A DNA stretch of 64,000 nt from a virus. Position 1 is the stretch's first letter; the number at the start of each line of letters is the position of its first letter. The notes below the pieces were generated by a model that was not told where the DNA came from, did no database searches, and worked only from the letters and a program-made list of their open reading frames with translations. The stretch lies in the IMG/VR virus record IMGVR_UViG_3300045988_163836, one strand, 5' to 3'. Below, one piece after another: positions 39,462 through 53,078 of the stretch. Position numbers and translations under genes: made by a program.

Positions 39462-39514
39462 GCTTCTTCACCCATTCACCCAACAACCAACTGACAATAT
39501 ATGGAGGTATTATT

Positions 39515-39850: not shown

Positions 39851-39885
39851 TTGCCCAACCAACCACAAGAAAGGGGATAACATTA

Positions 39886-40073: not shown

Positions 40074-40107
40074 AACCCTTGGCTTCCAATAGAAAGGATA
40101 ATACAAT

Positions 40108-40407
40108 ATGGCAACTGTACGAAATCCCTACGCTGAAATCCGTTTTCTTGATAAGAACAATGTTCAAACTGATTATTGCAGATGGCAATTATCCAGCACA
40201 TTCAACTGCCCTTGGCAGCCTGCCTTCTACCGCGAACTCGAAGAAAAACTCTACATCATGCAGGAACTGGAAATCGTAGGGTTCGGCAGTCGGTCTGCGG
40301 TATTTACTTCTGGTCTGCTGACTACCTACCATTTCACAAACTATCAGATTGTACAGGCAATCGAGCATACGGCCGACCACCTGACGTTAGTGGTGAGGGA
40401 CATTTGA
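40108..40407 (+). CDS. Hypothetical early protein, 99 aa.
   Basis: Track ORF with RBS AAAGGA. Confidence 0.5.
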   Translation: MATVRNPYAEIRFLDKNNVQTDYCRWQLSSTFNCPWQPAFYRELEEKLYIMQELEIVGFGSRSAVFTSGLLTTYHFTNYQIVQAIEHTADHLTLVVRDI

Positions 40408-40475
40408 GTCCCTCTACCGCTTACTAACCGCACAATCGAGCACATGGATTGAATTTTTGGAAAGGAATTTTTGAA

Positions 40476-40628
40476 ATGAAAAATCTCAAGCTGGCGTTGA
40501 CCTTATCCGGTATTATAATTTTCCTCTGGGTCAGCATTTCATTTTGCAATGTAGTAGCACATAACAATCCGGCTGGAGGGGCTTATGAATATCCCTCTTG
40601 GAATTTCTTCGTGATGATGGACGAGTGA
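40476..40628 (+). CDS. Small membrane peptide, 50 aa.
   Basis: Hand-translated as MKNLKLALTLSGIIIFLWVSISFCNVVAHNNPAGGAYEYPSWNFFVMMDE. RBS GGAA. Confidence 0.35.
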   Translation: MKNLKLALTLSGIIIFLWVSISFCNVVAHNNPAGGAYEYPSWNFFVMMDE

Positions 40629-40684
40629 AGGCCATATGGCCTTCACTTAAAATGAAATGAATTAACAGAAAGGAAATATCTGAT

Positions 40685-40996
40685 ATGATTAACATTCGCA
40701 CAATCAAGAAACTGGCTGACGGCGATGGCCTAACACTTAAAAATGGAAAAATCAAGAGGTACAAGAGTGGCTATCAGGTAGCTACTAATGGCGTCGAGGT
40801 CATCAGTCCTGAAATGGCAATACAGGCGGTTCGAGAGTTCAAAGGCACATGCGGCATTTGGCTTGAAAATGGCAGATACTACATTGACATTTCTAAACGA
40901 GTGTCCACAAAACGCGAGGCAGTTGAAATTGGCAGGAAATGTAATCAGCTTTCAATTTACAGATGGCGTGGAAATCCTGCCTGCCTTTACATTTAA
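40685..40996 (+). CDS. Hypothetical protein, 103 aa. Paralog of 41019..41336.
   Basis: The track ORF starts MINIRTIKKLADGDGLTLKNGKIKRYKSGYQV, compared with MINVRTIRKMQDGDTLNIKNGKIKKYKGGFQV in the neighbour. Confidence 0.55.
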   Translation: MINIRTIKKLADGDGLTLKNGKIKRYKSGYQVATNGVEVISPEMAIQAVREFKGTCGIWLENGRYYIDISKRVSTKREAVEIGRKCNQLSIYRWRGNPACLYI

Positions 40997-41018
40997 TATT
41001 TGAGAGGAGAAATAAAAA

Positions 41019-41336
41019 ATGATTAACGTGAGAACTATTCGGAAAATGCAGGATGGCGATACCCTGAACATCAAGAACGGAAAAATCAAAAAGTACAAGG
41101 GCGGTTTTCAGGTGAATATCGCAACATATGAATGCGAACAGCCCGAAAAGGCAATGGAAATTGCCAGAACCCTGAACCGAATGATTGGAAATTGCAGTAT
41201 TCAATTCAAAAATGGAAAATATTACGTCAGCACCACTGAACACGCCTACACCAGACGGCAGGCAAGAGAAATTGCAAATGAAATGGGCGTAAATAAGATT
41301 TATGAATGGCAGAATCTGGCTCATATGGCAGTTTGA
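41019..41336 (+). CDS. Hypothetical protein, 105 aa. Tandem paralog of 40685..40996.
   Basis: Track ORF with RBS GGAGGAG. Confidence 0.55.
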   Translation: MINVRTIRKMQDGDTLNIKNGKIKKYKGGFQVNIATYECEQPEKAMEIARTLNRMIGNCSIQFKNGKYYVSTTEHAYTRRQAREIANEMGVNKIYEWQNLAHMAV

Positions 41337-41437
41337 TCCTGAAATTCCAAGGGCTGGAAATTGGAAACAGTTTCCAGCCCATTTTTCAAATCATCTTCTT
41401 TAATTCATTATCACTTTAATTAAATAAATTGCCTCGC

Positions 41438-41505
41438 CGGGGCGTGGCGAAATTGATATATCCACAGCAAGCTCGCCACGCCCCGCATTTTCCATTTAAT
41501 ACCAA
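41438..41505 (+). terminator. Long GC-rich hairpin terminator.
   Basis: ctcgccggggcgtggcga ... tcgccacgccccgc followed by atttt. Confidence 0.5.
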
Positions 41506-41649
41506 TTCCGAATATTTCCAGCCAAATTCTACCATATTTGACATTACATTCCATTTCCCATATCCTACCAGCTTATGGTATATAATTCCATACCAAATAT
41601 TTCCAGAATCTTTGTGCATATTGACGAATAAAAAAATTTGACTTTCCTA

Positions 41650-41678
41650 TTGACATTTGCTATAGGGTGTGGTAATAT
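41650..41678 (+). promoter_or_regulatory. Early promoter (TTGACA-17-TAATAT with TGTG extension).
   Basis: ttgacatttgctatagggtgtggtaatat. Confidence 0.55.
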
Positions 41679-41683
41679 ATAAT

Positions 41684-41698
41684 TGTTCCAAGGGAACA
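41684..41698 (+). promoter_or_regulatory. Operator-like palindrome TGTTCC-aag-GGAACA just downstream of the promoter.
   Basis: A perfect 6-bp inverted repeat. A related site lies at 51136-51153. Confidence 0.4.
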
Positions 41699-41725
41699 GA
41701 TAAAAATGAAATGGAGATACAAAAA

Positions 41726-41893
41726 ATGACTACTGAAAAAATCGCTGAACTGCTGAACGAATGGATTGATAATGACCATGATTTTAGTGCTGAATCTATG
41801 AACGATTTCTGCAACACATATGCCCGCAATTATGACGAGTATATGGGTCTGTGGTACACAGTCTGCGGTTGCATCGAGGATGAGGAGGGCTAA
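41726..41893 (+). CDS. Small hypothetical protein, about 55 aa.
   Basis: An internal ATG of track ORF 41669..41893, preceded by GGAGA. Confidence 0.4.
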   Translation: MTTEKIAELLNEWIDNDHDFSAESMNDFCNTYARNYDEYMGLWYTVCGCIEDEEG

Positions 41894-41897
41894 CATC

Positions 41898-42038
41898 ATG
41901 TATGAGTTCGAGATGTACAATGTCAACACAAAAAAAATTGAAACTGCATATGGCTACTCCCTAGCAGACGCTAGGGAGAGAAGCCCGAAGTATAACAGCC
42001 GTGAATGGGTTTGTCTAATGTCTACTTATATTGATTAA
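41898..42038 (+). CDS. Small hypothetical protein, 46 aa.
   Basis: GAGGAGGG then the ATG at 41898. In frame with track ORF 41820..42038. Confidence 0.4.
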   Translation: MYEFEMYNVNTKKIETAYGYSLADARERSPKYNSREWVCLMSTYID

Positions 42039-42051
42039 GGGGGAAATGAAA

Positions 42052-42240
42052 ATGAAAATGTCTGAATTTGTAAATAACGTCCTTGATAAGGATATGCTGA
42101 TTGAACTTATTAAACACCTTCCTTCTTGTGAAGCCTGTCCTTTCCAAAAGGCTTGTGAGAAAGCGGTTAATGATAATCCGGATGAATCTTGCGAACAGTT
42201 TCTGAACCGTTGGATTGAAGATGATAGGAACGAGGGCTAA
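42052..42240 (+). CDS. Small Cys-rich hypothetical protein, about 62 aa.
   Basis: AAGGGGG RBS, then one of several tandem ATGs (MKMKMSEF). It has a C..C..C..C pattern. Confidence 0.4.
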   Translation: MKMSEFVNNVLDKDMLIELIKHLPSCEACPFQKACEKAVNDNPDESCEQFLNRWIEDDRNEG

Positions 42241-42270
42241 AAAGCCCTCTTCCAAAAGGAGGAAATTAAG

Positions 42271-42594
42271 ATGGATATTACAAAATTGCAAGTCAGTAAA
42301 CATTTCAAGGAAGACCGCTTGGACAGATATGTTGAAATTCAAATGAACACCGGACTTGGCGAACCTGTGGCAAAATTCAAATATGAGGACAAATGGCAGA
42401 TTATTACAAGCACGGGAGTGATTTTGATTACAGATAGCCGGATGGAATTTCTAATCACTTTGTATTATGTCAACATGGACAAAGCAACTGCAATTTTCAG
42501 ACGAAACGGGCAGATGAAAATGCCGAAAGTAGTATATGACGCAATTCAAAAGAACATGGCGAAAAAGCTAATCAAACATAGAAAGGAAAAATAA
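42271..42594 (+). CDS. Hypothetical protein, 107 aa.
   Basis: Track ORF with RBS AAAGGAGG. Confidence 0.55.
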   Translation: MDITKLQVSKHFKEDRLDRYVEIQMNTGLGEPVAKFKYEDKWQIITSTGVILITDSRMEFLITLYYVNMDKATAIFRRNGQMKMPKVVYDAIQKNMAKKLIKHRKEK

Positions 42595-42596
42595 AA

Positions 42597-42824
42597 ATGA
42601 AAATCGAGTATGAAAAGCCCAGACAGGTTATCCACTTCGCAGCTCTGGATATTGGAACTGTATTCAAATGTCCATCCTATGATACAGTTTATATAAAAAC
42701 TGAATGCGTAGATAATGACGGTGATGAAATCAATTCGATTGATTTATCTACTGGAGAACTTGATTGTTTTGCTGAGGATACAAAAGTCTACGCCGTAGAT
42801 GCTACATTATATGTTAAGGAGTGA
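42597..42824 (+). CDS. Hypothetical protein, 75 aa.
   Basis: Track ORF that abuts the previous stop. Confidence 0.5.
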   Translation: MKIEYEKPRQVIHFAALDIGTVFKCPSYDTVYIKTECVDNDGDEINSIDLSTGELDCFAEDTKVYAVDATLYVKE

Positions 42825-42830
42825 TAAAAA

Positions 42831-43043
42831 ATGGAAGGATATAAAACCTGGAAGTATCTGGTAATTAACTTCCTCCCTACAAAAGACTGGCCGCGATTGT
42901 TTTTTGTAGAAGCTTCGTGTCGTTCGGAAGCTGAACATTATATTCAAAAACACTGTGGAAAAGATTGTATGCTGGTGGATAAGTACGATGAATTTGTTGC
43001 AAAAATTCTTGACTATCCCGAAATTCCGCATGATAAATTCTAA
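42831..43043 (+). CDS. Hypothetical protein, 70 aa.
   Basis: Track ORF with RBS AAGGAG. A terminator hairpin follows at about 43046-43075. Confidence 0.5.
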   Translation: MEGYKTWKYLVINFLPTKDWPRLFFVEASCRSEAEHYIQKHCGKDCMLVDKYDEFVAKILDYPEIPHDKF

Positions 43044-43361
43044 TTTCCATTTGAATTTCCTCCCATATCTTGGGAGGAAATTCTATTTTGAAAATTATAA
43101 AAAAAAATAATATAATTTTTATATAAAAAAAATAATTTTTATTTCTGTTTCAATTCTATAATTTTCCAGTCAAAAAATCAAATGCGGCAAATTTGGCAAT
43201 CCCATAATTTGGAAGGGGAATTTGAGCCAGCCGCGATCCAACGCCGCGGCTGGAATTTCGCGAGTTAAAGTGCTAACGTAAAAAAGTTTTCCAAATCCTT
43301 CCAGCCCAGCCCTTGGAAAATTTTCCCAAAATGTTTGTGTAATTTGACGAATATTTTATGC

Positions 43362-43390
43362 TTGACTTCTGGTATGCCCTGTGCTATAAT
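43362..43390 (+). promoter_or_regulatory. Early promoter (TTGACT-17-TATAAT).
   Basis: ttgacttctggtatgccctgtgctataat, preceded by a GC hairpin terminator at about 43230-43262. Confidence 0.6.
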
Positions 43391-43411
43391 AAGGATACAA
43401 AAGGAAAGGAA

Positions 43412-43804
43412 ATGATAAAAATGAAAATTTACATGGCTGGAGCGTTCTTCCGCCCTGAGACAAAATCAAGAATTGATTCATATGCGGCAGGTTTCCGGCG
43501 GCTTGGGTATGATGTATTTGTTCCGCAAGAACATACTGTCCCGAATGCTTGGGATATGTCGCAGGAAGATTGGGCAAGGGAAGTTTTCAAAATGGATGTT
43601 GCCGCAATTCAAGAATGTGATATTCTATTTGCTGTATATGATGGTCTATACTCTGATTCTGGAACAGCTTGGGAAATCGGGTATGCTTATGCCCATGGGA
43701 AAAATATCCAAATCAGTGTAAATAATGGTGTAAAAGATATGTCAATTATGCCATTCGCAAGTGCTTGGGCTATTGAAAACTATAAAAATATCAAATTAGT
43801 TTGA
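43412..43804 (+). CDS. Nucleoside 2-deoxyribosyltransferase-family protein (NDT / DNPH1-like), about 130 aa.
   Basis: 'MKIYMAGAFF...' together with 'DSGTAWEIGYAYAHGK' matches the family-defining motifs of the NDT fold. RBS AAAGGAAAGGAA. Confidence 0.6.
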   Translation: MIKMKIYMAGAFFRPETKSRIDSYAAGFRRLGYDVFVPQEHTVPNAWDMSQEDWAREVFKMDVAAIQECDILFAVYDGLYSDSGTAWEIGYAYAHGKNIQISVNNGVKDMSIMPFASAWAIENYKNIKLV

Positions 43805-43813
43805 AAAAAACAC

Positions 43814-43842
43814 TTAACAAATCCGCTTGTATCTGATATAAT
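43814..43842 (+). promoter_or_regulatory. Early promoter (TTAACA-17-TATAAT).
   Basis: ttaacaaatccgcttgtatctgatataat. Confidence 0.5.
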
Positions 43843-43875
43843 AAAGATACTCCAAAAGAGAAAGGAAATGATAAA

Positions 43876-44349
43876 ATGATTAAGGAATTGTGCTTCGATC
43901 TTGATGGAACTCTGGTTGACCTCTATGGGGTTGAAGATTGGCTTGATAAGATTCGAGCCTATGACCCTACACCTTATCAGACCGCCGAACCGCTGGTTGA
44001 TATGGCAGAACTTGCCTGTCTACTCCGTAGCTTGCAGAATTGCGGTATCAATGTTGCGGTTATCACTTGGCTGTCAAAAGAGCCGAACAAGCAGTATGAT
44101 GATGAAGTCAGAAAAGCAAAGAGAGCTTGGCTGAAAGAATATGGTTTTCCATTTGACAGTTTGCGATGTGTAGCCTATGGGACGCCGAAGCATAAGATTG
44201 AAGCCGCAAGACTTGCTGATGATGAAGAAGCCCTGATTTTTGATGATGATGCAAGAGTCCGCAGAGATTGGGACTTGGGCGGAGCAATCGACCCCACGAC
44301 CACAAACATCCTTGATGTGCTGAAAGAAATTTTGAATGGACTGGAATAA
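43876..44349 (+). CDS. HAD-superfamily phosphatase, 157 aa (5'(3')-deoxyribonucleotidase-like).
   Basis: The N-terminal 'FDLDGTLVD' is HAD motif I (DxDGT). Its size and layout resemble small phage deoxynucleotidases. Confidence 0.5.
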   Translation: MIKELCFDLDGTLVDLYGVEDWLDKIRAYDPTPYQTAEPLVDMAELACLLRSLQNCGINVAVITWLSKEPNKQYDDEVRKAKRAWLKEYGFPFDSLRCVAYGTPKHKIEAARLADDEEALIFDDDARVRRDWDLGGAIDPTTTNILDVLKEILNGLE

Positions 44350-44373
44350 TCCAGCCCATAGGGGGAAAATGAA

Positions 44374-44586
44374 ATGAATGATATTCTTAAAGAACTTACA
44401 GACTTGGCAAATAAGATTGAAAAATTGTCTGGAAAAGTGTACCTTAGCAGAAAGGATATCTCAAATCCTTATGATTTTACACAAGCAGAAGAATTGAGCG
44501 ATAAGTTATTCAAGATACAATCTGATTTACGTTATGATTGTTATACCTTAGCTGTTGCTATTTGGGGAGACGATGATGGAGACTAA
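44374..44586 (+). CDS. Hypothetical protein, 70 aa.
   Basis: Track ORF with RBS GGGGGAA. Confidence 0.5.
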   Translation: MNDILKELTDLANKIEKLSGKVYLSRKDISNPYDFTQAEELSDKLFKIQSDLRYDCYTLAVAIWGDDDGD

Positions 44587-44770
44587 AATTATAGTTTATT
44601 ATGCTGGTGTAAATTGTTGGAATGTGTCCTATTTTGAGGAACTGCTTTTTGACACAGAAGAAGAAGCTAACCGCTTTATTGGCAAAATTAAAAATAGAAT
44701 GGATGTTAACCGAATTATCAAGACTATTGATTGGAAATTTGAGGGGAGAAACAAAAATGATGATTCCTAA
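44576..44770 (+). CDS. Small hypothetical protein, about 64 aa. Tandem paralog of 44757..44954.
   Basis: An internal ATG of track ORF 44555..44770. It shares a 'KIIVYYAGV...FDTEEEANRFI' motif with the next gene. Confidence 0.4.
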   Translation: METKIIVYYAGVNCWNVSYFEELLFDTEEEANRFIGKIKNRMDVNRIIKTIDWKFEGRNKNDDS

Positions 44771-44954
44771 AAATATTATTGTTAAGTATTCAGGTGTTGA
44801 TAAAAGAGGATTATATTATAATAATGCATTAGAGTTTCGCACAGAACGAGATGCTGACCTTTTTATTCTGGATATGAAGAAATTGATGTTTGGACTGCAA
44901 TCTTATACAAAAATTATCAATTGGGTAAAAAAGGAAGAAACGACAAATGAATGA
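44757..44954 (+). CDS. Small hypothetical protein, about 65 aa. Paralog of 44576..44770.
   Basis: GAGGGGAGAAACAAAA then ATGATG. 'NIIVKYSGV...FRTERDADLFIL'. Confidence 0.4.
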   Translation: MMIPKNIIVKYSGVDKRGLYYNNALEFRTERDADLFILDMKKLMFGLQSYTKIINWVKKEETTNE

Positions 44955-45033
44955 CGAACAGCTTGATATTTTACTTGAAGAAGCAACAGATATTAAAATT
45001 TTGATTGCCTTGGGCTGAAAGGATTGGTAAAAA

Positions 45034-45267
45034 ATGAAAGTTGTAGCTTATATTACGAAGTGCGTTCCTGTCATAGTAGAAATTGATGATAAGTGGAAAA
45101 AGATGGAAAGATGGGCCAATGAACCTACTTGTGAAGAATTGGATGATTATCACGATGATAACATTGATGAATTCGAGGAAGAAGTTGACAAAGCACTGGA
45201 AACAATCGGCGAAAGCGACTATGACATTGCGACAGTCCATACTTCGGCAGGAAATGAAATTTTTTAA
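45034..45267 (+). CDS. Acidic hypothetical protein, 77 aa.
   Basis: Track ORF. A terminator hairpin at about 45345-45383 follows. Confidence 0.5.
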   Translation: MKVVAYITKCVPVIVEIDDKWKKMERWANEPTCEELDDYHDDNIDEFEEEVDKALETIGESDYDIATVHTSAGNEIF

Positions 45268-45435
45268 GAATTGAAAAAATTGGGAATCCAGATTTTGGAT
45301 TCCCCTTTTCTTAATTGTCTATTGGAAATAATTTACATTTTCATTTGAGCCTGCCGCGAACCAACGCCGCGGCAGGCATTTTAGATTTTCAGCATTTTCA
45401 CCAATTTTTTGCCCTAAAATTTGTGCATTCTGCCA

Positions 45436-45464
45436 GTAGACAAAAATCCTAAAACATGATATAC
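45436..45464 (+). promoter_or_regulatory. Early promoter (TAGACA-17-TATACT with TG extension) inside a repeated roughly 110-bp cassette.
   Basis: tagacaaaaatcctaaaacatgatatact. The cassette at 45375-45485 is about 85% identical to 48650-48765. Confidence 0.5.
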
Positions 45465-45527
45465 TTTATAATGTCAAAGGGAAATAATAATTAAATGTTT
45501 AGATAAAATAAGAAAGAGGTAAGCCTA

Positions 45528-46592
45528 ATGACTATTGAAAAAAATAAGAACTTGTTTATCATCACTCTTGGAGATGGCAAGAAAACCTACTTCAACTTCT
45601 CTGATGGCTGTATCTATGGTATGACCGGCAAAAAGGTTAAGGATTTTTGTCCAGAAGCAAAAAGGATTCTCAAAGAATACGCCGATAATAATTTTCTTGC
45701 AAGATATTTTGTAGTAAGAAATAAAGATTATGACTCTTATTTTAGTGATGCTAATAAATGGTCTACTGAAATGGTAGAAACTGTTTATAGCATCTTCGGC
45801 AAAGAATATAATTTGCGTATCCTTGGTGTAATTGCTTATTTCTGTAGCTATAATCATTATGTTCTTGATAAGCAAGGCGTTAAATATCTGAAATTAGGTC
45901 TTGCATCACTGGAAGAACGCCAGCTTGAAAATCTGTGCCGGAATGAAATTGAAGTTGCTGTTCGGGCAGTACATTATTCAAATGTCAATCCGCAGATTTT
46001 AAGAATGATGAATAATGTGAAGCCCGCAGTACATGAAATTATTCTGAAAGACGCAGATAAAATTTTGTTCCGAATGGAACATGAATGTTGGGAACTGCTT
46101 GAAGGCTTCTATGCTATGAGTAAATACATTGAAAGATATATCACACTCTGCAACGAATTGGGCAAAGAAAGAACATACAAAGATATGTTTTTAGCCATTT
46201 GTCAGATGGAAATGGAAAAACGCCTTGCTCTTGAAGCAGGAAGCAGAGACTATCAGTTAAATGCAAACCTTGCATTTGAAGATAATAATTTTATTGTACT
46301 TGTGCCAACGGTAGCAAAAGAATTTGAAGCAGAGGCCGACTATCAGTCAAACTGTGTTTATCGTGCCTATTATCCAAAGGTATTGAAGCGTGAAACACAC
46401 ATTGTTTTTATTCGGCACAAGGCTGAACCGGAAAAACCCTACATCACTTGCGAAGTAAATAATGATGGAAAAATCATCCAGTATCTGACACGTTTCAATA
46501 ATCGTGTTGATTGGGAAACTGATGAATTGGGCTTCCAGTTCCAAGCAATATACGCTAATTATCTTTCTGAACATTTTAATAAAAACGCTTGA
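45528..46592 (+). CDS. Hypothetical protein, 354 aa.
   Basis: Intact track ORF with RBS AAGAAAGAGG. No family recognised. Confidence 0.6.
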   Translation: MTIEKNKNLFIITLGDGKKTYFNFSDGCIYGMTGKKVKDFCPEAKRILKEYADNNFLARYFVVRNKDYDSYFSDANKWSTEMVETVYSIFGKEYNLRILGVIAYFCSYNHYVLDKQGVKYLKLGLASLEERQLENLCRNEIEVAVRAVHYSNVNPQILRMMNNVKPAVHEIILKDADKILFRMEHECWELLEGFYAMSKYIERYITLCNELGKERTYKDMFLAICQMEMEKRLALEAGSRDYQLNANLAFEDNNFIVLVPTVAKEFEAEADYQSNCVYRAYYPKVLKRETHIVFIRHKAEPEKPYITCEVNNDGKIIQYLTRFNNRVDWETDELGFQFQAIYANYLSEHFNKNA

Positions 46593-46617
46593 CAAAATAG
46601 CCCTATTGTGATATAAT
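46589..46617 (+). promoter_or_regulatory. Early promoter (TTGACA-17-TATAAT) overlapped by a palindrome.
   Basis: ttgacaaaatagccctattgtgatataat. The palindrome is tagccctat ... atagggcta at 46598-46624. Confidence 0.55.
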
Positions 46618-46646
46618 AGGGCTATCAAAAGAAAGGAATTGATATC

Positions 46647-46958
46647 ATGAATTTTGAATCCGCTATTGTTGAAGCAATGAATTTGCAGGACTTGCACAAT
46701 TATATAAACAACATGAAGCCCGAAGAATTACAGACCCTGATTGCATTAGCACAGACAAGAATTAACCAGTTAGACCAAGAGAAAGAAGCAAAGTACATGG
46801 CCGCAATTATTAAGGCTATTCAGGATTATCTGGATAATGTTGGAGATTTGACATTCCATGTCGAGTATGAAGATGAAGATGGTCAGAACGGGGAAACTGA
46901 CATTACAGTAGATAATACAAATCCGCCTGCTGGTGGCAATGGAGTTATTTATATTTAA
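46647..46958 (+). CDS. Hypothetical protein, 103 aa.
   Basis: Track ORF with the conserved leader AAAGAAAGGAATTGATA. Confidence 0.55.
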   Translation: MNFESAIVEAMNLQDLHNYINNMKPEELQTLIALAQTRINQLDQEKEAKYMAAIIKAIQDYLDNVGDLTFHVEYEDEDGQNGETDITVDNTNPPAGGNGVIYI

Positions 46959-46970
46959 GGAGTGATACAA

Positions 46971-47285
46971 ATGCTTACAAATCCTAGTTTTTATATTGCA
47001 TGGGCTGTCATGGCCGTATTTCCTCTAATGATTGCTTTTCTTGCCCCTGAAACTTGGGGCGGCAAAATTGTTGCTATTTTAGTTGCACTTGCTATCGCTT
47101 TTGGTGTTGCGACTCTTATGTATAAAGAAGCAGAGGGAGACCATGATCGCTGGAACAATGGATACTGCGAATGTGGTGGTCAGTATCAGTTTTCTAGTGC
47201 TACAAATTGGCGTGGTTCAAAAAACTATTATTACACTTGTGATAAGTGCGGGCATACAGAAGAATTTCATGCAATCATGAAATAA
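46971..47285 (+). CDS. Membrane-anchored zinc-ribbon protein, about 104 aa.
   Basis: TAAGGAG then the ATG at 46971. An N-terminal transmembrane segment and a C-terminal CxCGG..CDKCGH motif. Confidence 0.5.
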   Translation: MLTNPSFYIAWAVMAVFPLMIAFLAPETWGGKIVAILVALAIAFGVATLMYKEAEGDHDRWNNGYCECGGQYQFSSATNWRGSKNYYYTCDKCGHTEEFHAIMK

Positions 47286-47334
47286 AAAACAAGCCGGCTG
47301 GGAAAAAAATTATAAAAAAAAATTCCCAACCGGC

Positions 47335-47363
47335 TTGACAAATTAAAAAAAATTTGATATAAT
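47335..47363 (+). promoter_or_regulatory. Early promoter (TTGACA-17-TATAAT) following a hairpin terminator at 47291-47337.
   Basis: ttgacaaattaaaaaaaatttgatataat. Confidence 0.55.
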
Positions 47364-47394
47364 AATAGTACCAAAAGGAAAGGAATTGATAATC

Positions 47395-47805
47395 ATGACT
47401 GAAATTACGACCTATGAATGCGACTTTTGCGGGCAGGTGTTCGACGATGAAGCGGAATGTATTCATCATGAATGGAAATGCAGATACGAAGATCTGTGTA
47501 AAACTGAAAATTGCGAACCAATAAAAATGTTCAATGTCCTTGGTAAAGAAATCAATAGTTTTGATTATCCTGAATGTGATGAAATTGGAGCTGTTGAAAT
47601 TCATTCTTACGCTTGGGCACAATTCATCAATGATTATTTTGATGAACGGGGTTATGAACATCCTATTAAAATTAAAATGGGGCTGATTGATTACTATGGT
47701 CTGTGGTATTATGACCCTGAATACCATTATGGTGAGTGGCGGTCTTATGAAGAAGTTCTTGAAGGTATTCAGGAAATTGGCAAGAAATTTGGAGTAGGGG
47801 CTTGA
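47395..47805 (+). CDS. Cys-rich hypothetical protein, about 136 aa.
   Basis: Track ORF 47386..47805. Preferred ATG at 47395 after the conserved leader. CDFCG..C..H and C..C motifs. Confidence 0.55.
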   Translation: MTEITTYECDFCGQVFDDEAECIHHEWKCRYEDLCKTENCEPIKMFNVLGKEINSFDYPECDEIGAVEIHSYAWAQFINDYFDERGYEHPIKIKMGLIDYYGLWYYDPEYHYGEWRSYEEVLEGIQEIGKKFGVGA

Positions 47806-47830
47806 CAAGCCCCTTACCCTGTGGTATAAT
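47802..47830 (+). promoter_or_regulatory. Early promoter (TTGACA-17-TATAAT). Its -35 element is embedded in a hairpin.
   Basis: ttgacaagccccttaccctgtggtataat. Hairpin aggggcttgacaagcccct. Confidence 0.55.
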
Positions 47831-47860
47831 TGATTTATCAAAAGGAAAGGAATTGATACA

Positions 47861-48136
47861 ATGAATTATCAAGTTATTTTCATGGATAATGAGGGAACTG
47901 TTCAGGCGGGTATTTGGAATCAGGACAGGGATGAAATTGTCTGCGGTTGCTGTGGTGCAACCATCGAGTCGGGCGATTTTGTTCTGCTTCATATCTATGA
48001 TGAATGGCTGAACATTACCGATGAAATCTGTGGAGATGATGGAGAAATTCTCCATGAGATTGAAGAAAAGGTTGACCGCCTGACTACTTCGGAGATTGAG
48101 GCAATTCTTGATGGAGAGAAGGATTTTAACGCATGA
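47861..48136 (+). CDS. Hypothetical protein, 91 aa (CGCCG motif).
   Basis: Track ORF with the conserved leader. Confidence 0.55.
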   Translation: MNYQVIFMDNEGTVQAGIWNQDRDEIVCGCCGATIESGDFVLLHIYDEWLNITDEICGDDGEILHEIEEKVDRLTTSEIEAILDGEKDFNA

Positions 48137-48282
48137 AAGGGAAAAAGTTCAGAAAGGGCGGTTACATCGCCCAAGCTGTCCAGTGGGACCATTATGAAGC
48201 CCTTTGGATTTGTAAATTTTCATGGGGCGAGTTCTTCTATGAAGATGATGAATTTATCAGGGAAAATCTGGTGGAGGATTAA
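48133..48282 (+). CDS. Small hypothetical protein, 49 aa.
   Basis: ATGA overlap with the upstream stop. Hand-translated as MKGKKFRKGGYIAQAVQWDHYEALWICKFSWGEFFYEDDEFIRENLVED. Confidence 0.35.
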   Translation: MKGKKFRKGGYIAQAVQWDHYEALWICKFSWGEFFYEDDEFIRENLVED

Positions 48283-48284
48283 AA

Positions 48285-48605
48285 ATGAAATTTTTGATTG
48301 CGGCGATTATTGCTTGGTTTCAGAAAAATGAACTGCCTGTTGTAATTTATGGGGCTGATGGTAGCCCCATTGCCAACTGGGAAATTAAGCCAAAGGATTG
48401 TTATTTTGCAAAGCGGCTGGATGAGGCTGTTCGCGATAGAGATGGATTATACTGTTATCCATTAAATGCTGATGGTGAATACTGCGGTTGCATTTGCTGG
48501 GAGTGGCGGGGAGATGATGATGATTTTGAACAGCCAGAAATTTATGATATTTTGAATATCTGTAATCTTCTGGAAATTGCCTGCGGTTTGGATGAAAATT
48601 CCTAA
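48285..48605 (+). CDS. Hypothetical protein with an N-terminal transmembrane segment, 106 aa.
   Basis: Track ORF. A terminator hairpin at about 48620-48662 follows. Confidence 0.5.
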   Translation: MKFLIAAIIAWFQKNELPVVIYGADGSPIANWEIKPKDCYFAKRLDEAVRDRDGLYCYPLNADGEYCGCICWEWRGDDDDFEQPEIYDILNICNLLEIACGLDENS

Positions 48606-48714
48606 AAAATTGGGCGGTTCATTTGAGCCGCCCGATGTCCTGCACACCGGGCGGCATTTTAATTTTTTAGCATTTTGCACAATTTTTTCATGCAAATTTT
48701 GTGCATCTTGCCAA

Positions 48715-48743
48715 TAGACAAAAATCCTGAAATGTGATATACT
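48715..48743 (+). promoter_or_regulatory. Early promoter in the second copy of the repeated cassette (TAGACA-17-TATACT).
   Basis: tagacaaaaatcctgaaatgtgatatact. Confidence 0.5.
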
Positions 48744-48845
48744 CTATAATGTCAAGAGGGAACGGTTAGAGAAAAACCTATTGCTATTAAGTTAGCATCA
48801 CGGTTTGAAATCCGAAAAAATTTCAAAAATAAATAAAATTCCCTC

Positions 48846-48874
48846 TTGACAAATAGTACCTGATGTGTTATAAT
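48846..48874 (+). promoter_or_regulatory. Early promoter (TTGACA-17-TATAAT).
   Basis: ttgacaaatagtacctgatgtgttataat. Confidence 0.55.
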
Positions 48875-48923
48875 TGAGTCAACAAGTGAAGGAAACACTT
48901 AAAAACCAGAAAGGATTGATACC

Positions 48924-49310
48924 ATGGAAAAGATTAAAGCCCCCACCCGCAAGGAAATATTCACTACTGTTTCTGACTTCCTCGCCCAGCATGATGCAGA
49001 CACTGACCTGATTGATTTCATCAATCACCAGATTGAACTGCTGGACAACAAGAAGGAAAACAAGAAGCAGGCCAAGGAGCAGGAAGAAAACGCCGCCTAC
49101 TCTGATGCAATCTATGAGCAGATGGCATTCGAGCGTAAGTACAGCGTTGCAGAGCTGATGAAGGAGCTTCCGATGGTCAATGACTGGAACACCAACCACG
49201 AAACTGAACTGTCGGTTCAGAAGCTCGCAAGCCTGTTGAAGCCGCTGGTCGATGGTGGCAAGGTCATTAAGACCACCGAGAAACGCAGAGTGTTCTACAC
49301 TAAGGCGTGA
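48924..49310 (+). CDS. Hypothetical protein, 128 aa. Paralog of 51202..51579 (module copy A, gene 1).
   Basis: Track ORF. Its C-terminus 'GKVIKTTEKRRVFYTKA' compares with 'GRVIKTTEKRRVYYTKA' in the paralog. Confidence 0.55.
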   Translation: MEKIKAPTRKEIFTTVSDFLAQHDADTDLIDFINHQIELLDNKKENKKQAKEQEENAAYSDAIYEQMAFERKYSVAELMKELPMVNDWNTNHETELSVQKLASLLKPLVDGGKVIKTTEKRRVFYTKA

Positions 49311-49356
49311 TAAACCAAGGGGCGGAGAAATCCGCCCCACTATTTAAGGAGAGCCT

Positions 49357-49755
49357 ATGAGAGAGTTGACTGAAAAGGAATGGGCAAAAGTCGATAATCT
49401 TGTTGACAAGCTGGAATGTTCGATTGATGAAGCAGTTGACATTCTGGACGCCGACAAAGCTATTGACCGCAATCAGAAGGTTGATTTTGATTTAAGTCCA
49501 GAAGAACATAAGCAAGCAATGAAACTTGCTAATGTCAAAGAGCATACAGTTAAGAAAAGCAATGTCTATCGCCCGCGTAAGCCTAATGAAATTAAAGGTG
49601 CGATTATCGCCGGTTTGTCAAAATATTTGACAGAAACGGCAGATTTTGAAGTGATTGATGAAGAAATCACAAATAAAGAGCGTACAATCATGTTTACAAG
49701 TGGCGGCAACCGCTACGAATTGACCCTGATACAAAAGAGAGCATCAAAAACTTGA
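49357..49755 (+). CDS. Hypothetical protein, 132 aa. Paralog of 51672..52034 (module copy A, gene 2).
   Basis: Track ORF with a shared architecture ('...RYELTLIQKR' vs '...YRLTLMRPRK'). A terminator follows at 49756-49793. Confidence 0.5.
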   Translation: MRELTEKEWAKVDNLVDKLECSIDEAVDILDADKAIDRNQKVDFDLSPEEHKQAMKLANVKEHTVKKSNVYRPRKPNEIKGAIIAGLSKYLTETADFEVIDEEITNKERTIMFTSGGNRYELTLIQKRASKT

Positions 49756-50028
49756 AGAAAATGCTGGAAAATGAAAATTTTTCCAGCATTTTTGTATAAT
49801 TTAATGAATTTTTAAGGATTTTTTGTGCATTTTTATCTATTGACATTTGGGCTGCCCGGCCACGACCTAGCCGGGCAGAATTTCCAGTTTTTACCAGTTT
49901 TACCAATTTTTTTACCAAAACTCTGCTTCATTTGATTAAAATATTAAATCCTTAAAGTGTCGTTGAGTCATGGACACCAAATATTGGAAATGTATAAATA
50001 TTCATTGAAAATGAATAAATATTCTTCT

Positions 50029-50057
50029 TGACATTTTGGGCAAGGTGTGATAATATA
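50029..50057 (+). promoter_or_regulatory. Early promoter (TTGACA-17-TAATAT with TGTG extension).
   Basis: ttgacattttgggcaaggtgtgataatat. The palindrome TATTCATTgaaaATGAATA (about 49999-50017) lies just upstream. Confidence 0.55.
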
Positions 50058-50118
50058 TAAGAGCAATGAGGGAGCGATGGCAAACCCTGATTGACATTAT
50101 TAAAAGGATGGAAACCCT

Positions 50119-50976
50119 ATGACTAAACTTGATAAGCGTCGAAAGTATTACCTGATTCTGGATTGTGAAACTGCGACACTTCCTTATGCCGCAAAGTTTA
50201 ATGCAAACCAGAAAAAAGATGTCGCAATCGCCAAGCCGCTGATTTATGATTTGGGATGGCAGATTGTGGATATTCGGGGCAATGTTTACAAGCGTGCGTC
50301 TTATCTCATTTCTGAAATTTTCAGTGTTCCCGCCGTTTTCAATACTGCATATTATGCAAGTAAGCGTCCGATTTATTTGGAGCGTCTGAAAGCCGGAGAA
50401 ATCAAGCTGACGGATTGGAATACCGCAGTCAATGAACTGATTGAAGATTTGGACGCTGTTGTAGCTGTTGGAGCATATAACAGTATGTTCGACTTTAAGA
50501 AAGCTATTCCATTCACTGACCTGTATGTTTCCAAGCTCTATGCCCCTGATTTCTTTGAGTGGGAAGCATATCAGAATGATAGATGTGAAGCAATCGCCCA
50601 CGGAAGCAAGCCCCATTCGCAGAAAGAGTTTGAACCGGATGTTTTCCGCTTCCATGGCAAGACGTATCCGCTGTTTGACTTGTGGGGTCTGTCTTGTGAA
50701 CACCTGTTGAATAATCCTGAATATAAACAGATGTGCTATGATAATGAGTGGAGAACCGCAAGCGGCAAATATTATCCGACTAACGCAGAAAAGGCATTTG
50801 CCTATTGTTTCCAGCAGGAAGATTTTGAAGAAAGTCATACTGCATTAGAGGACGCAATTATTGAGTCTATGCTGTTCGCCCTTATTGGAGCAAAGACCAA
50901 GCACAAGTTTGAAATGGGCATTGAATATTTCCCCTACAAGAAGTTGGGAAGATTTGACAGTGATTGGGAGCTGTAA
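50119..50976 (+). CDS. DEDDh-family 3'-5' exonuclease (DnaQ/RNase T-like), 285 aa.
   Basis: Exo I motif 'LILDCETATL' near the N-terminus and Exo III motif 'HTALEDA' near the C-terminus. Confidence 0.6.
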   Translation: MTKLDKRRKYYLILDCETATLPYAAKFNANQKKDVAIAKPLIYDLGWQIVDIRGNVYKRASYLISEIFSVPAVFNTAYYASKRPIYLERLKAGEIKLTDWNTAVNELIEDLDAVVAVGAYNSMFDFKKAIPFTDLYVSKLYAPDFFEWEAYQNDRCEAIAHGSKPHSQKEFEPDVFRFHGKTYPLFDLWGLSCEHLLNNPEYKQMCYDNEWRTASGKYYPTNAEKAFAYCFQQEDFEESHTALEDAIIESMLFALIGAKTKHKFEMGIEYFPYKKLGRFDSDWEL

Positions 50977-52034: not shown

Positions 52035-52259
52035 ATGGAAGATGGAAACATCTTCCATCCTTTTTGGAATCATAATTGGAAAATTTTTCCAAGGAAAATA
52101 TTGGAACAGATGGTAATTTCAACCGGTCGCGTACAGTTGACGCGACCGGAATTTTGATTTAATTTGATAATTGTAAATTTTCCGAAAAAAAATTCGGACA
52201 TTTTACGAAAATTGATTTTTCCCGAATTTTATAGTATTATGTAAAAGGAGGTAAAAATT

Positions 52260-52880: not shown

Positions 52881-53078
52881 ATAAATTGGAGCCGACCGGT
52901 CTGGCAAGACTTGGTCGGAATTTCCGTTTAAACCCTCATATGGCAATTTTTTGTTCAATCTAGCAGCCTCTCATATGCCGCATGTTTTTCCCGAAACTTG
53001 CAATTTTTAAAAAAATATTTTATAATATATATACAGAATAAAGAGTTCTGGAAATCTTTATAAAGAGGTAATATACAT

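What the first reader, a model, noticed from the sequence alone, without database searches (positions are those of the whole stretch)
41596..48765. Repeated terminator-promoter cassette and a shared upstream element at four early promoters
The intergenic regions 45340-45485 and 48620-48765 are about 85% identical over about 110 bp. Each has a GC hairpin terminator, then 'gcattttagattttcagcatttt...tttgtgcat(t/c)(c/t)tgcca(g/a)tagacaaaaatcct(a/g)aaa(c/t)(a/g)tgatatact'. A shorter core, TTTGTGCAT..TG(A/C)C(G/A)AATA, also precedes the promoters at 41611-41637 and 43334-43357.

This looks like a duplicated regulatory module, either an UP element or an activator or repressor site, that is reused to drive several early transcription units.
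Basis: seen in the sequence. Interest (0 to 1): 0.5.

Follow-up and report, generated by a model that had tools for sequence, protein, structure and literature searches.

The report
Reused terminator-promoter cassettes in phage
The two look-alike intergenic stretches are real and belong to a family of "stop-then-restart" transcription cassettes in the early region of an uncultured gut phage; the cassettes carry a short upstream motif (TTGTGCAA) that many phages of gut Clostridia share, and they also act as crossover points where gene blocks get swapped.

Summary
Regions 45340-45484 and 48618-48762 are 79.5% identical when aligned with gaps (82% over the last 110 nt), against 49% for shuffles.

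They are two of at least six plus-strand cassettes in the early region (43209, 45333, 48609, 49838, 52113, 52880; a remnant lies at 41601). The phage has TAG-recoded late genes and its terminase resembles those of Firmicutes phages.

Each full cassette has four parts:
- A GC hairpin with a U-tract. Covariation is strong: 89.5% of cells paired, 8 of 10 pairs changed on both sides.
- An A/T-rich spacer.
- The 8-mer TTGTGCA(A/T), which starts 16 nt before the -35.
- A sigma-A-type extended -10 promoter with a conserved leader.

The c1-c2 similarity is highest in the promoter half because c1 is a recombinant. Its 5' half matches the c1 of relatives (94%). Its 3' half matches a c2 (90%). The PcfJ-like gene moved with it, and most synteny breakpoints against nine relatives fall in cassettes or other intergenic regulatory DNA.

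This is the logic of the T4 PeSL cassettes, found here in an unrelated phage lineage.

The 8-mer is not private to this phage. It is orientation-specific and sits 9-10 or 19-20 nt from the -35 in 97 non-redundant phage sequences. It also occurs in unrelated 13-kb phages and at Clostridia sugar-gene promoters. The factor that binds it is unknown.

The parts
45282..45312 (+). Canonical intrinsic terminator (GGGAATCCA...TGGATTCCC plus a T run) ending the unit upstream of cassette c1.
   Evidence: Terminator scan; sequence.
45349..45389 (+). Cassette c1 hairpin. Stem GCCTGCCGCG (45349-45358) pairs with CGCGGCAGGC (45368-45377), with a 9-nt loop, followed by ATTTTAGATTTT.
   Evidence: Covariation across 21 copies.
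45397..45404 (+). Degenerate distal 8-mer (TTCACCAA) at the position that TTGCACAA occupies in c2.
   Evidence: Alignment.
45420..45436 (+). Upstream element TTTGTGCATTCTGCCAG (core TTGTGCAT, 45421-45428). The homology of c1 switches from the c1 lineage to the c2 lineage at or near this element; the alignment was split here for the test.
45437..45465 (+). Type-A promoter: -35 TAGACA, a 17-nt spacer containing TCCTAAAA, TG, and -10 TATACT. It drives the PcfJ-like gene at 45528-46592.
   Evidence: Conserved in relatives.
48612..48668 (+). Cassette c2 hairpin. Stem GCCGCCCG (48627-48634) pairs with CGGGCGGC (48648-48655), with a 13-nt loop, followed by ATTTTAATTTTTT. An upstream GGGCGG (48612-48617) can pair with the 5' arm instead.
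48675..48682 (+). Distal 8-mer TTGCACAA, the inverted copy of the motif, 24 nt start-to-start upstream of the proximal copy.
48698..48714 (+). Upstream element TTTGTGCATCTTGCCAA (core TTGTGCAT, 48699-48706).
48715..48743 (+). Type-A promoter: TAGACA, 17 nt, TGATATACT.
   Evidence: alignment.
48751..48850 (+). Conserved leader. GTCAAGAGGGAA (48751-48762) is the inverted repeat of TTCCCTCTTGAC (48839-48850), and the two flank a variable 76-nt insert. The 3' arm overlaps the -35 of the next promoter (48846-48874).
41611..41678 (+). Type-B unit: TTTGTGCA, 2 nt, TTGACG, then TTGACT at +19, then the promoter TTGACA-17-TGgTAATAT (41650-41678). A large GC hairpin lies upstream at 41438-41485.
   Evidence: (I22, D4).
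43227..43390 (+). Whole cassette. The hairpin CCAGCCGCG/CGCGGCTGG (43227-43253) is 90% identical to that of c1, with a compensatory change. It is followed by TTTGTGTA-2-TTGACG (43334-43349) and the promoter TTGACT-17-TATAAT (43362-43390; -35 at +20).
   Evidence: D6; E = 2.7e-11.
49822..50056 (+). Cassette with the order changed: TTTGTGCA (49822-49829), TTGACA (49840-49845), hairpin CTGCCCGGC/GCCGGGCAG (49852-49878), a T-rich tract, then the promoter TTGACA-17-TAATAT (50028-50056) ahead of the exonuclease-like gene.
52123..52149 (+). Cassette-type hairpin CCGGTCGCG...CGCGACCGG followed by AATTTT. It marks the left edge of the HNH insertion.
52893..52919 (+). Cassette-type hairpin (GCCGACCGG...TTGGTCGG) followed by AATTT. 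It marks the right edge of the HNH insertion.

Best explanation
The two similar stretches belong to a family of composite terminator-promoter cassettes that punctuate the early, plus-strand, ORFan-rich region (about 37.3-53.5 kb) of a large phage. The phage has TAG-recoded late genes and most likely infects a gut Clostridia or other Firmicutes host.

How a cassette works, in order:
1. A GC-rich hairpin followed by a U-tract stops transcripts arriving from upstream. This is inferred from covariation, strand and position.
2. An A/T-rich spacer carries the 8-mer TTGTGCA(A/T), often with an inverted copy (TTGCACAA) 24 nt further upstream. The motif is an orientation-specific upstream promoter element. 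It ends 9-10 nt before the -35, or one helical turn further away at 19-20 nt. This places it where an RNA polymerase alpha-CTD, an alpha-CTD cofactor or an activator would bind. The geometry is shown; the factor is unknown. A host-type factor is the more likely candidate.
3. A sigma-A-type promoter (T(A/T)GACA, 17 nt, TGnTATACT) restarts transcription. This is inferred.
4. A conserved leader begins the new transcript.

The cassettes are the longest dispersed repeats in the region, so homologous recombination between them, and between the simpler promoter/RBS repeats, reshuffles gene modules. This part is shown. Cassette c1 is a chimera of a c1-type 5' half and a c2-type 3' half, and the PcfJ-like gene came along with the 3' half. 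That event is why c1 and c2 look so alike.
For: Repeat and family
- Searches confirm the repeat.
- Profile searches find at least 6 cassettes in the window and about 30 in relatives. The window's cassette copies are all on the + strand.

Hairpin
- Across 21 distinct copies, 89.5% of cells are paired, against 32-45% when the partner columns are slid.
- 8 of 10 pairs change on both sides, and three T's after the stem are invariant.

Promoter
- The consensus -35, 17-nt spacer and extended -10 are present.
- The promoter is kept in relatives whose flanking late genes are only 65-73% identical.

Motif geometry
- TTGTGCA starts 16 nt before the -35 in 25 promoter-linked cases in the window and its relatives. 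The inverted copy starts at -39 or -38 in 18.
- In 97 non-redundant phage sequences, full promoters start at +9/10 (19 cases) or +19/20 (19 cases). Leftward promoters mirror this (16 and 18 cases).

Motif breadth
- The exact pair pattern hits at least 119 IMG/VR contigs. A composition-matched scramble hits 1.
- About 13-kb protein-primed phages carry the motif but share no early protein with this phage.
- Most of the listed genome hits are in Clostridia.
- The motif lies upstream of cellobiose phosphorylase in 8 species, of an msmK-like gene in 5, and of glgCD/murC in 3.

Recombination
- The 5' half of c1 is 94% identical to c1 of L003 and L004 but 71-74% to c2 copies. The 3' half is 90% identical to c2 of L001 but 61-71% to c1 copies.
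- The PcfJ-like gene follows c2 in L001 and is absent from L003, L004, L043 and L351-L354.
- Recurrent breakpoints lie at 45441, 46629, 49763/49820-49846, 52097-52129/52918-52937 and 43820/43843.

Setting
- Nearly all early ORFs have no significant Pfam match.

Precedent
- PeSL cassettes of T4-type phages work this way (PMC2839356 and PMC4122927).
Against: - There are no transcript data. Termination, initiation and any effect of the 8-mer are inferred.
- Hairpin loops are 9-13 nt, longer than in typical intrinsic terminators, and the U-tracts are short or interrupted. The simple scan flagged only some of the hairpins.
- Three cassettes (41.4, 43.2 and 45.3 kb) already have a canonical terminator just upstream, so the GC hairpin may do something more or something different.
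- At 49822 and its orthologues, the motif plus TTGACA is followed by the hairpin and not by a -10. The 13-kb phages also show no -10 at the right distance. The motif is therefore not always part of a recognisable promoter.
- Loci were selected by patterns that contain the motif. This inflates counts, though it does not affect the geometry or the scrambled control.
- Some genome hits are probably phage contigs binned into MAGs, or chance matches.
Confidence: 0.72

Rival explanations
1. The 8-mers are operators for a phage-encoded regulator. Candidates are the conserved 128-aa protein at 48924-49310 and its paralogue at 51202-51579, or the AbrB/SpoVT-like protein at 38113-38313. Such a regulator would switch the cassette promoters on or off during infection.
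For: - The motif is kept across the whole clade.
- In some relatives two copies form a perfect palindrome, TTTGTGCAAgTTGCACAAA.
- The 128-aa gene lies within 2.5 kb of the motif pair in 32 loci, and AbrB-like genes in 17.
- The 128-aa protein has a weak match to an HTH phrog (E = 0.008). Its predicted helix-helix-helix-strand-strand C-terminus fits a winged helix.
Against: - The motif also occurs in 13-kb protein-primed phages that share none of these proteins.
- It occurs upstream of conserved host genes in several Clostridia species.
- Its strict orientation and two distances one helical turn apart look more like a promoter element than an operator.
- The structure model is unreliable (pLDDT 56).
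Confidence: 0.18
2. The shared upstream sequence is a generic UP element or curved A/T-tract DNA that alpha-CTD contacts on its own, with no specific factor involved.
For: - The element lies at about -45 to -60.
- T-tracts recur every 7-13 nt between the hairpin and the -35 in c1 and c2.
- AAATTTTGTGCA begins like the distal UP subsite consensus (recalled from memory).
Against: - The invariant part is GTGCA, which contains G and C.
- In distant relatives the T-tracts are replaced by other sequence (TGTCAATAGACA-type) while the 8-mer stays.
- In the host cellobiose phosphorylase promoter a third copy of the 8-mer occupies the -35 position itself.
Confidence: 0.12
3. The GC hairpins are not mainly terminators. 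They might be RNA processing or stability signals, for example RNase III sites or 3'-end protectors. Alternatively they might be DNA-level signals at which recombination or a nuclease acts.
For: - Loops are long, at 9-13 nt.
- A separate canonical terminator lies just upstream in three cassettes.
- Stems differ strongly between paralogous cassettes while the flanks (TTTGAG, ATTTT) are conserved.
- Breakpoints cluster at cassettes.
Against: - Every copy is followed by a T run on the transcribed strand.
- All the window's copies share the orientation of the genes and sit after stop codons.
- Stem-loops in PeSL cassettes were shown to terminate transcription.
Confidence: 0.1
4. The similarity is only a recent neutral duplication, and the short core at the other promoters is a chance match in T-rich DNA.
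For: - The whole-window count of TTTGTGCA is at chance level.
- The degenerate 19-mer pattern gives 4 hits against 1.9 expected.
Against: - Early intergenic DNA holds 4 sites against 0.095 expected.
- The motif is conserved and fixed in position in divergent phages.
- The scrambled control gives 1 hit against at least 119.
- The hairpins covary.
Confidence: 0.03

Closest known systems
PeSL (promoter-early stem-loop) cassettes of T4-type phages (Arbiol et al. 2010, PMC2839356; Comeau et al. 2014, PMC4122927)
   Same: - Small composite motifs: a strong sigma-70-like early promoter, an AT-rich upstream tract and a GC stem-loop.
- They are repeated many times in a hyperplastic, ORFan-rich early region.
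- Indel and replacement breakpoints between relatives fall in them, so they mediate modular shuffling.
   Different: - The phage lineage is unrelated. Its terminase resembles those of Firmicutes siphoviruses such as Geobacillus E3 and Enterococcus VRE9/EF1.
- The stem-loop sits 50-60 nt upstream of the -35. In PeSLs it most often lies between or overlapping the boxes.
- This family has an extra conserved 8-mer at a fixed distance and a conserved leader.
- No minicircles or reporter data exist here.
Spx/alpha-CTD upstream element (-45 AGCA -42 followed by an A-tract) of the Bacillus subtilis trxA and trxB promoters (PMC2801614)
   Same: - A short core containing GC, followed by A's, lies just upstream of the -35.
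- It is read by alpha-CTD together with a cofactor.
- The trxB sequence is TTGAGCAAAAAAA. Its A-45T mutant carries exactly TTGTGCAA.
   Different: - In trxB, GCA ends 6 nt before the -35 hexamer. Here the gap is 9-10 or 19-20 nt.
- The first base of the tetramer differs (T in place of A).
- No Spx-like gene was seen among the early ORFs that were scanned.
- This is a lead only.
Phage phi29 regulator p4 sites and Spo0A boxes at phi29 early promoters (recalled from memory; not checked in the library)
   Same: - Short inverted repeats about two helical turns apart lie upstream of phage promoters in bent DNA.
- A host global regulator's boxes are embedded in the early promoters of a Firmicutes phage.
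   Different: - The sequences differ: the p4 site is CTTTTT-N15-AAAATG and the 0A box is TGNCGAA.
- No p4 homologue was found.
- TGACGAA at 41622 and 43345 matches the 0A box, but the pattern is not enriched (3 found against 1.0 expected).
Classical UP element of rrnB P1 (as cited in PMC2801614)
   Same: The position (-38 to -59) and the A/T-rich flanks.
   Different: The conserved core is GTGCA. The A/T tracts are not the conserved part.

Membership tests
PeSL-type terminator-promoter cassette | A sigma-70-like early promoter inside the repeat. | tested here: met
   TAGACA or TTGACA, 17 nt, then TGnTATACT or TATAAT, scoring 10-12 of 12 with an extended -10. Conserved in relatives.
PeSL-type terminator-promoter cassette | An adjacent sequence able to form a stable GC-rich stem-loop. 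| tested here: met
   Stems of 8-11 bp, with 89.5% of cells paired across 21 copies and compensatory changes in 8 of 10 pairs.
PeSL-type terminator-promoter cassette | An AT-rich tract upstream of the -35. | tested here: met
   T-tracts at 45378-45419 and 48656-48697.
PeSL-type terminator-promoter cassette | Many copies concentrated in a hyperplastic region, upstream of ORFans. | tested here: met
   At least 6 copies between 43.2 and 52.9 kb and none with a significant score in the 37-kb late region. Nearly all early ORFs lack a significant Pfam match.
PeSL-type terminator-promoter cassette | Insertion, deletion and replacement breakpoints between relatives fall in the cassettes. | tested here: met
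   Breakpoints at 45441, 49763-49846, 52097-52129 and 52918-52937. c1 is a chimera.
PeSL-type terminator-promoter cassette | Promoter and terminator activity, and minicircle formation, shown by experiment. | not testable with these tools
   Needs reporter assays, Term-seq and junction PCR.
PeSL-type terminator-promoter cassette | Occurs in T4-type myoviruses, the group in which the family was defined. | tested here: not met
   The terminase is closest to those of Geobacillus E3, Enterococcus VRE9/EF1 and SPbeta-like phages. This is therefore an analogue, not a homologous member.
Rho-independent (intrinsic) terminator | A GC-rich stem directly followed by a U-tract on the transcribed strand, downstream of a stop codon. 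| tested here: met
   three T's after the stem are invariant. All the window's copies are on the + strand.
Rho-independent (intrinsic) terminator | A short loop of about 3-8 nt. | tested here: not met
   Loops are 9-13 nt in most copies. The simple scan therefore missed several.
UP element | An A/T-only consensus at -38 to -59 that is the conserved part of the region. | tested here: not met
   The conserved core is TTGTGCA. The A/T tracts vary or are replaced in distant relatives.
Spx/alpha-CTD -44 element | AGCA at -45 to -42, that is, GCA ending 6 nt before the -35 hexamer. | tested here: not met
   The sequence is TGCA, and it ends 9-10 or 19-20 nt before the -35.
Transcription-factor operator (phage or host) | A specific protein binds the 8-mer. 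| not testable with these tools
   Only indirect support exists: sequence invariance without covariation, fixed geometry, and occurrence at host promoters.

The most novel reading that the evidence does not exclude
TTGTGCAA may be the recognition site of an uncharacterised host factor of gut and rumen Clostridia, either a global regulator or an alpha-CTD cofactor of the Spx kind.

The factor would act from one face of the helix, with the motif ending 9-10 or 19-20 nt before the -35. It would control host carbohydrate genes (cellobiose phosphorylase, msmK, glgCD).

Several unrelated phage lineages would have copied the site into their early promoters and terminal repeats, so tying the start of infection to the host's nutritional state.
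Probability: 0.3. Interest if true: 0.7.

Novelty: new variant of a known kind. Interest (0 to 1): 0.5.

Why it matters
- The work extends the PeSL idea outside T4-type phages. In that idea, dispersed terminator-promoter cassettes both organise early transcription and drive modular gene shuffling. Here it appears in an abundant, uncultured gut phage clade with TAG-recoded late genes and Firmicutes affinities.
- It yields a concrete, searchable promoter signature: TTGTGCA(A/T), then 9-10 or 19-20 nt, then TTGACA, 17 nt and TGnTATAAT. The signature marks early promoters in more than a hundred phage contigs. It also links those phages to Clostridia hosts, and one copy lies inside a CRISPR spacer of Stomatobaculum longum.
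- If the motif is read by a host factor, it gives a direct handle on how these phages sense host physiology. It would also point to an undescribed regulator of sugar metabolism in gut Clostridia.

Tried and rejected
Searches that found nothing or nothing useful
- Megablast and blastn of the region and of c2 against deposited phages gave no match.
- Rfam found nothing above gathering score in 37-54 kb, so the leaders and hairpins belong to no known RNA family.
- No tRNA was found.
- A literature search for the 8-mer returned mostly primers. The only relevant hit was the Spx paper.
- Pfam and PHROGs scans of 34 of the 35 listed early ORFs (two of them, 48133 and 48285, were not scanned; 43876 and 53079 in Pfam only) found no clear DNA-binding regulator. 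The exceptions are an AbrB/MraZ-like N-terminus and a weak HTH hint.
- AlphaFold2 of the 128-aa protein gave pLDDT 56, too poor for a fold search.

Ideas considered and dropped
- The pair TTGCACAA...TTGTGCAA as an RNA or DNA hairpin. The arms never covary: c1 has TTCACCAA and the L003 c3 copy has TTTGGTTA. Single sites exist, and an arrangement with only 1 nt between the arms occurs.
- Spo0A 0A boxes (TGNCGAA) in the type-B core. They are not enriched (3 found against 1.0 expected, P = 0.08).
- DnaA box, Rex, CRP/FNR, CodY, LexA, CIRCE, WalR and sigma-54 consensus sequences, compared from memory. None fits in both sequence and spacing.
- A second promoter reading leftwards out of c1 or c2. No -10 lies at the right distance.

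A caution on one scan
- The first IMG/VR scan for TTTGTGCANNNTGNCARTNGACA was too loose. It mostly returned the 13-kb terminal-repeat phages, although these later proved informative.

Full report
**Setting**

The window has two parts. Bases 1-37,000 are AT-rich (GC 0.25-0.34) and are coded on the minus strand. Bases 37,300-53,500 have GC of about 0.40 and carry some 35 small plus-strand ORFs behind many consensus sigma-70-type promoters with extended -10 boxes.

Under the standard code the minus strand holds only 7 ORFs of 200 aa or more. With TAG read as sense it holds 24, totalling 13,130 aa. These include a 3,107-aa tape-measure-like protein and proteins I took to be the terminase and portal (only the terminase was checked by homology). 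The late genes contain 244 in-frame TAG codons and no TAG stops.

The terminase, translated with TAG as Gln, is 62% identical to an unannotated human-faecal phage. It is 45-47% identical to Geobacillus virus E3 and to the roughly 140-kb Enterococcus phages. The exonuclease-like early protein points the same way.

The window is therefore part of a large, uncultured phage with TAG-recoded late genes and Firmicutes-phage affinities. The finding lies in its early region.

**The observation**

Regions 45340-45484 and 48618-48762 align at 76% identity without gaps, 79.5% with gaps, and 82% over the last 110 nt. Shuffles give a mean of 49% and a maximum of 57%. The refutation threshold of 60% is not reached.

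Both copies contain the following, in order:
- a GC hairpin followed by ATTTT;
- T-tracts;
- TTTGTGCAT;
- TAGACA, a 17-nt spacer, and TGATATACT;
- a shared leader, TATAATGTCAA.

The short core is exact at 41611 and has two changes at 43334. A further TTTGTGCA lies at 49822.

Counted over the whole window, TTTGTGCA is at chance level (4 found, 2.9 expected). All four copies, however, are on the plus strand in the 4.2 kb of early intergenic DNA. There 0.095 are expected, and 0 of 1000 dinucleotide shuffles reach 4.

**A family, not a pair**

A profile built from c1 and c2 finds about 30 copies in the window and in related IMG/VR contigs. A wider profile finds plus-strand cassettes in the window at 43209-43428, 45333-45507, 48609-48778, 49838-50012, 52113-52264 and 52880-52955. 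Weak remnants lie at 41601-41628 and 41471-41528. The few matches in the late region all have E-values of 2 or more.

The alignment of 16 copies gives this anatomy:
- TTTGAG;
- a GC stem of 8-11 bp, a loop of 8-13 nt, and the return stem;
- (C/A)ATTTT;
- T-tracts;
- TTGCACAA, degenerate in the c1 lineage;
- about 16 nt;
- TTTGTGCA(A/T)nnTGnCAR;
- T(A/T)GACA;
- a spacer containing TCCYGAWA;
- TGnTATACT;
- the leader.

**The hairpin**

Paralogous cassettes have quite different stems, for example GCCGCCCG, CCTGCCGCG, GCCGCGCGAC, CCTCGCGGC, CTGCCCGGC and CCAGCCGCG. Their flanks are nevertheless alike.

On 21 distinct copies, 89.5% of cells pair, against 32-45% when the partner columns are slid. 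Eight of 10 pairs show changes on both sides, in 48 cells against 17 in shuffles. Three T's after the stem are invariant.

Taken with the strand, and with the position after stop codons, this is best read as an intrinsic terminator. There are two oddities. The loops are long (9-13 nt). In three cassettes a canonical terminator lies just upstream.

**Why c1 and c2 are so alike**

Relatives were found with the PcfJ-like protein, with DNA patterns, and with the 128-aa protein.

Cassette c1 was split at TTTGTGCA and each half compared with the other cassettes:

| Half of c1 | Identity to c1-position cassettes of relatives | Identity to c2 cassettes |
|---|---|---|
| 5' half | 94% (L003, L004) | 71-74% |
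| 3' half | 61-71% | 90% (L001) |

In L001 the PcfJ-like gene (window 45484-46618) follows c2, not c1. In L003, L004, L043 and L351-L354 the gene is absent. Other genes and a third cassette fill the interval between c1 and the 103-aa gene.

Recurrent synteny breakpoints in window coordinates are:
- 45441, at the -35 of c1, in five relatives (L003, L351-L354);
- 46629, just after the -10 of P46589;
- 49763 and 49820-49846, where relatives have a 206-aa gene inserted;
- 52097-52129 and 52918-52937, where an HNH endonuclease is inserted in the window between two cassette hairpins;
- 43820 and 43843, a promoter/RBS repeat flanking a gene insertion in relatives.

Modules are therefore exchanged at the regulatory repeats. 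The c1-c2 likeness is the scar of one such exchange.

**Comparison with PeSLs**

The papers on T4-type phages define PeSLs as follows:
- strong sigma-70-like early promoters with an AT-rich upstream tract and a GC stem-loop;
- many copies in hyperplastic, ORFan-rich regions;
- a role in mediating indels and replacements.

All the sequence-level features are met here (see the membership table). Nearly all early ORFs lack a significant Pfam match.

The phage lineage is unrelated, and the stem-loop sits further upstream than in most PeSLs. There is also an additional conserved motif. I therefore call this a functional analogue, meaning a new variant of a known kind, and not a member of the PeSL family.

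**The upstream element**

The 8-mer TTGTGCA(A/T) keeps its sequence in relatives whose late genes are only 65-73% identical. It is strongly over-represented there, for example 13 copies against 0.6-0.9 expected in L065 and L083. These loci were selected through the motif, which guarantees at least one copy each.

Its position is rigid. TTGTGCA starts 16 nt before the -35 in 25 promoter-linked cases. The inverted copy starts at -39 or -38 in 18 cases.

A scrambled inverted pair of matched composition hits one.

Among 97 sequences that are less than 75% identical to one another:
- 42 have a full rightward promoter, with the -35 starting 9-10 nt (19 cases) or 19-20 nt (19 cases) after TTGTGCA;
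- 37 have a mirror-image leftward promoter beside the inverted copy (16 and 18 cases);
- 17 have both.

The unit is thus one oriented 8-mer per promoter, at two distances one helical turn apart. The 'pair' is typically what two divergent promoters leave behind.

The window's type-A promoters (c1 and c2) belong to the +9 class. The site at 43334 belongs to the +19/20 class, with an extra TTGACG at +2. At 41611 the hexamer at +19 (TTGACT) has no -10 at the right distance, and the working -35 lies at +31.

**Who reads the motif?**

An RNA or DNA hairpin formed between the two copies is unlikely. The arms never covary, single copies are common, and a variant with only 1 nt between the arms exists.

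A phage-encoded regulator is possible. Of the viral loci, 61 of 108 share early genes with the window. These include the exonuclease, the HAD-like protein, the AbrB-like protein and the 128-aa protein.

Three observations favour a host-type factor:
1. Thirty-nine contigs of about 13 kb encode a protein-primed DNA polymerase and share no early protein with the window. They carry TTGCACAA...TTTGTGCAAAATGTCAATAGACA in both terminal repeats.
2. The genome scan returns mostly Clostridia (Lachnospiraceae, Oscillospiraceae, Ruminococcus, Acutalibacteraceae). Only 7 of 120 of those loci share a protein with the phage.
3. The motif cluster lies upstream of cellobiose phosphorylase in eight species, of an msmK-like ATPase in five, and between glgCD and murC in three. 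At the cellobiose phosphorylase promoter a third copy serves as the -35 (TTGTGC, 17 nt, TATAAT).

One genome hit is a CRISPR spacer in Stomatobaculum longum.

The closest documented parallel is the Spx/alpha-CTD element of B. subtilis trxB, TTGAGCAAAAAAA. Its A-45T mutant carries the very 8-mer. The spacing to the -35 differs by 3 nt, however, so this is a lead and not an identification.

A plain UP element is disfavoured. The conserved core contains G and C, and the T-tracts are not kept in distant relatives.

**Limits**

- Nothing here measures transcription, termination or binding.
- Several locus sets were selected with patterns that contain the motif.
- MAG loci may be binned phage DNA.
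- At 49822, and in the 13-kb phages, the motif is not followed by a recognisable -10.
- The AlphaFold2 model of the 128-aa candidate was too poor to use (pLDDT 56).

**Verdict**

The best-supported account is a PeSL-like family of terminator-promoter cassettes. They organise early transcription and act as recombination points. They carry an oriented upstream promoter element that is widespread among phages of gut Clostridia and is read by a factor still unknown.

Confidence is about 0.7 for the cassette and recombination account. It is about 0.3 for the host-factor reading of the 8-mer.

Noticed in passing
window 313-37067 (- strand) versus 37300-53500 (+ strand): The late structural genes use TAG as a sense codon: 244 in-frame TAG codons in 11,203, and no TAG stops. 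With TAG read as sense, the strand has 24 ORFs of 200 aa or more in place of 7. The early region uses the standard code and has higher GC (0.40 against 0.25-0.34). No suppressor tRNA lies in the window.
   Followed up: partly
window 52130-52936: An HNH-type endonuclease ORF (52260-52880) reads through four TAG codons. It is absent, together with its flanks, from L003 and L351-L354. The insertion lies between two cassette-type hairpins (52123-52149 and 52893-52919).
   Followed up: partly
window 48603-48668: In c2 a GGGCGG (48612-48617) lies just after the upstream gene's stop codon (48603-48605). It can pair with the 5' arm of the terminator (CCGCCC, 48629-48634), and this pairing is the predicted minimum-energy fold. 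The arrangement could be a translation-coupled choice between terminator and antiterminator. It is conserved in L001, L003, L098 and L187.
   Followed up: partly
window 48751-48850; L001 4061-4155 and 5312-5410: Directly after type-A promoters, a 12-nt inverted repeat (GTCAAGAGGGAA / TTCCCTCTTGAC) encloses about 75 nt that differ completely between copies. The 3' arm contains the -35 of the next promoter. It could be a structured leader or a small RNA. There is no Rfam match.
   Followed up: partly
window 41684-41698 and 51136-51153: The transcripts from P41650 and P51102 would begin with the same small hairpin (TGTTCC...GGAACA) after ATAATTG. This is a second conserved leader type, also seen after c1 in L001 and L004.
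   Followed up: no
window 48924-49755 and 51202-52034: Two paralogous two-gene units (128+132 aa and 125+120 aa; the first proteins are 45% identical). Each has its own promoter and ends at a cassette. The first protein ends in an invariant VIKTTEKRRV(F/Y)YTKA, and its predicted secondary structure resembles a winged helix. More than 250 close homologues exist in public metagenomes, so the phage is common.
   Followed up: partly
window 38800-39056: An untranslated stretch of about 250 nt, richer in G+C than its neighbours, lies downstream of promoter 38768-38796 and ahead of the gene at 39057. There is no Rfam match. Upstream, at 38380-38480, lie several TTGAAAT(T)GA repeats.
   Followed up: no
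L258 (Stomatobaculum longum ACC2) 1568-1600: A CRISPR spacer (TGTTGCACAAATTTGACGGCTGGAATTTGTGCA), between repeats GTTTTCCCCGCACACGCGGGGGTGATCC, consists of the 8-mer pair. A Lachnospiraceae host has therefore targeted a phage carrying this promoter region.
   Followed up: partly
L016, L074-L102 and others (IMG/VR contigs of about 13 kb): These small phages have a protein-primed family-B DNA polymerase and about 50% GC. They carry the 8-mer pair and TGTCAATAGACA in both inverted terminal repeats, with no -10 at promoter distance. Contig ends still carry Illumina adapter sequence (GCTCTTCCGATCT).
   Followed up: partly
L238, L264, L332 (cellobiose phosphorylase); L251, L333 (msmK-like); L231, L233, L329 (glgCD/murC): Host Clostridia promoters of carbohydrate genes carry two or three copies of the same 8-mer. 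In the cellobiose phosphorylase promoter one copy takes the place of the -35.
   Followed up: partly
window 43398-43424, 43854-43880, 46627-46658, 47372-47398, 47839-47872: A second repeat class joins a consensus promoter GCTTGACAAA-N14-TGnTATAAT to the ribosome-binding stretch AAAGGAAAGGAATTGATA. Relatives have a 129-aa gene inserted between duplicated copies of this repeat at 43820/43843, so these simpler repeats also serve as crossover points.
   Followed up: partly
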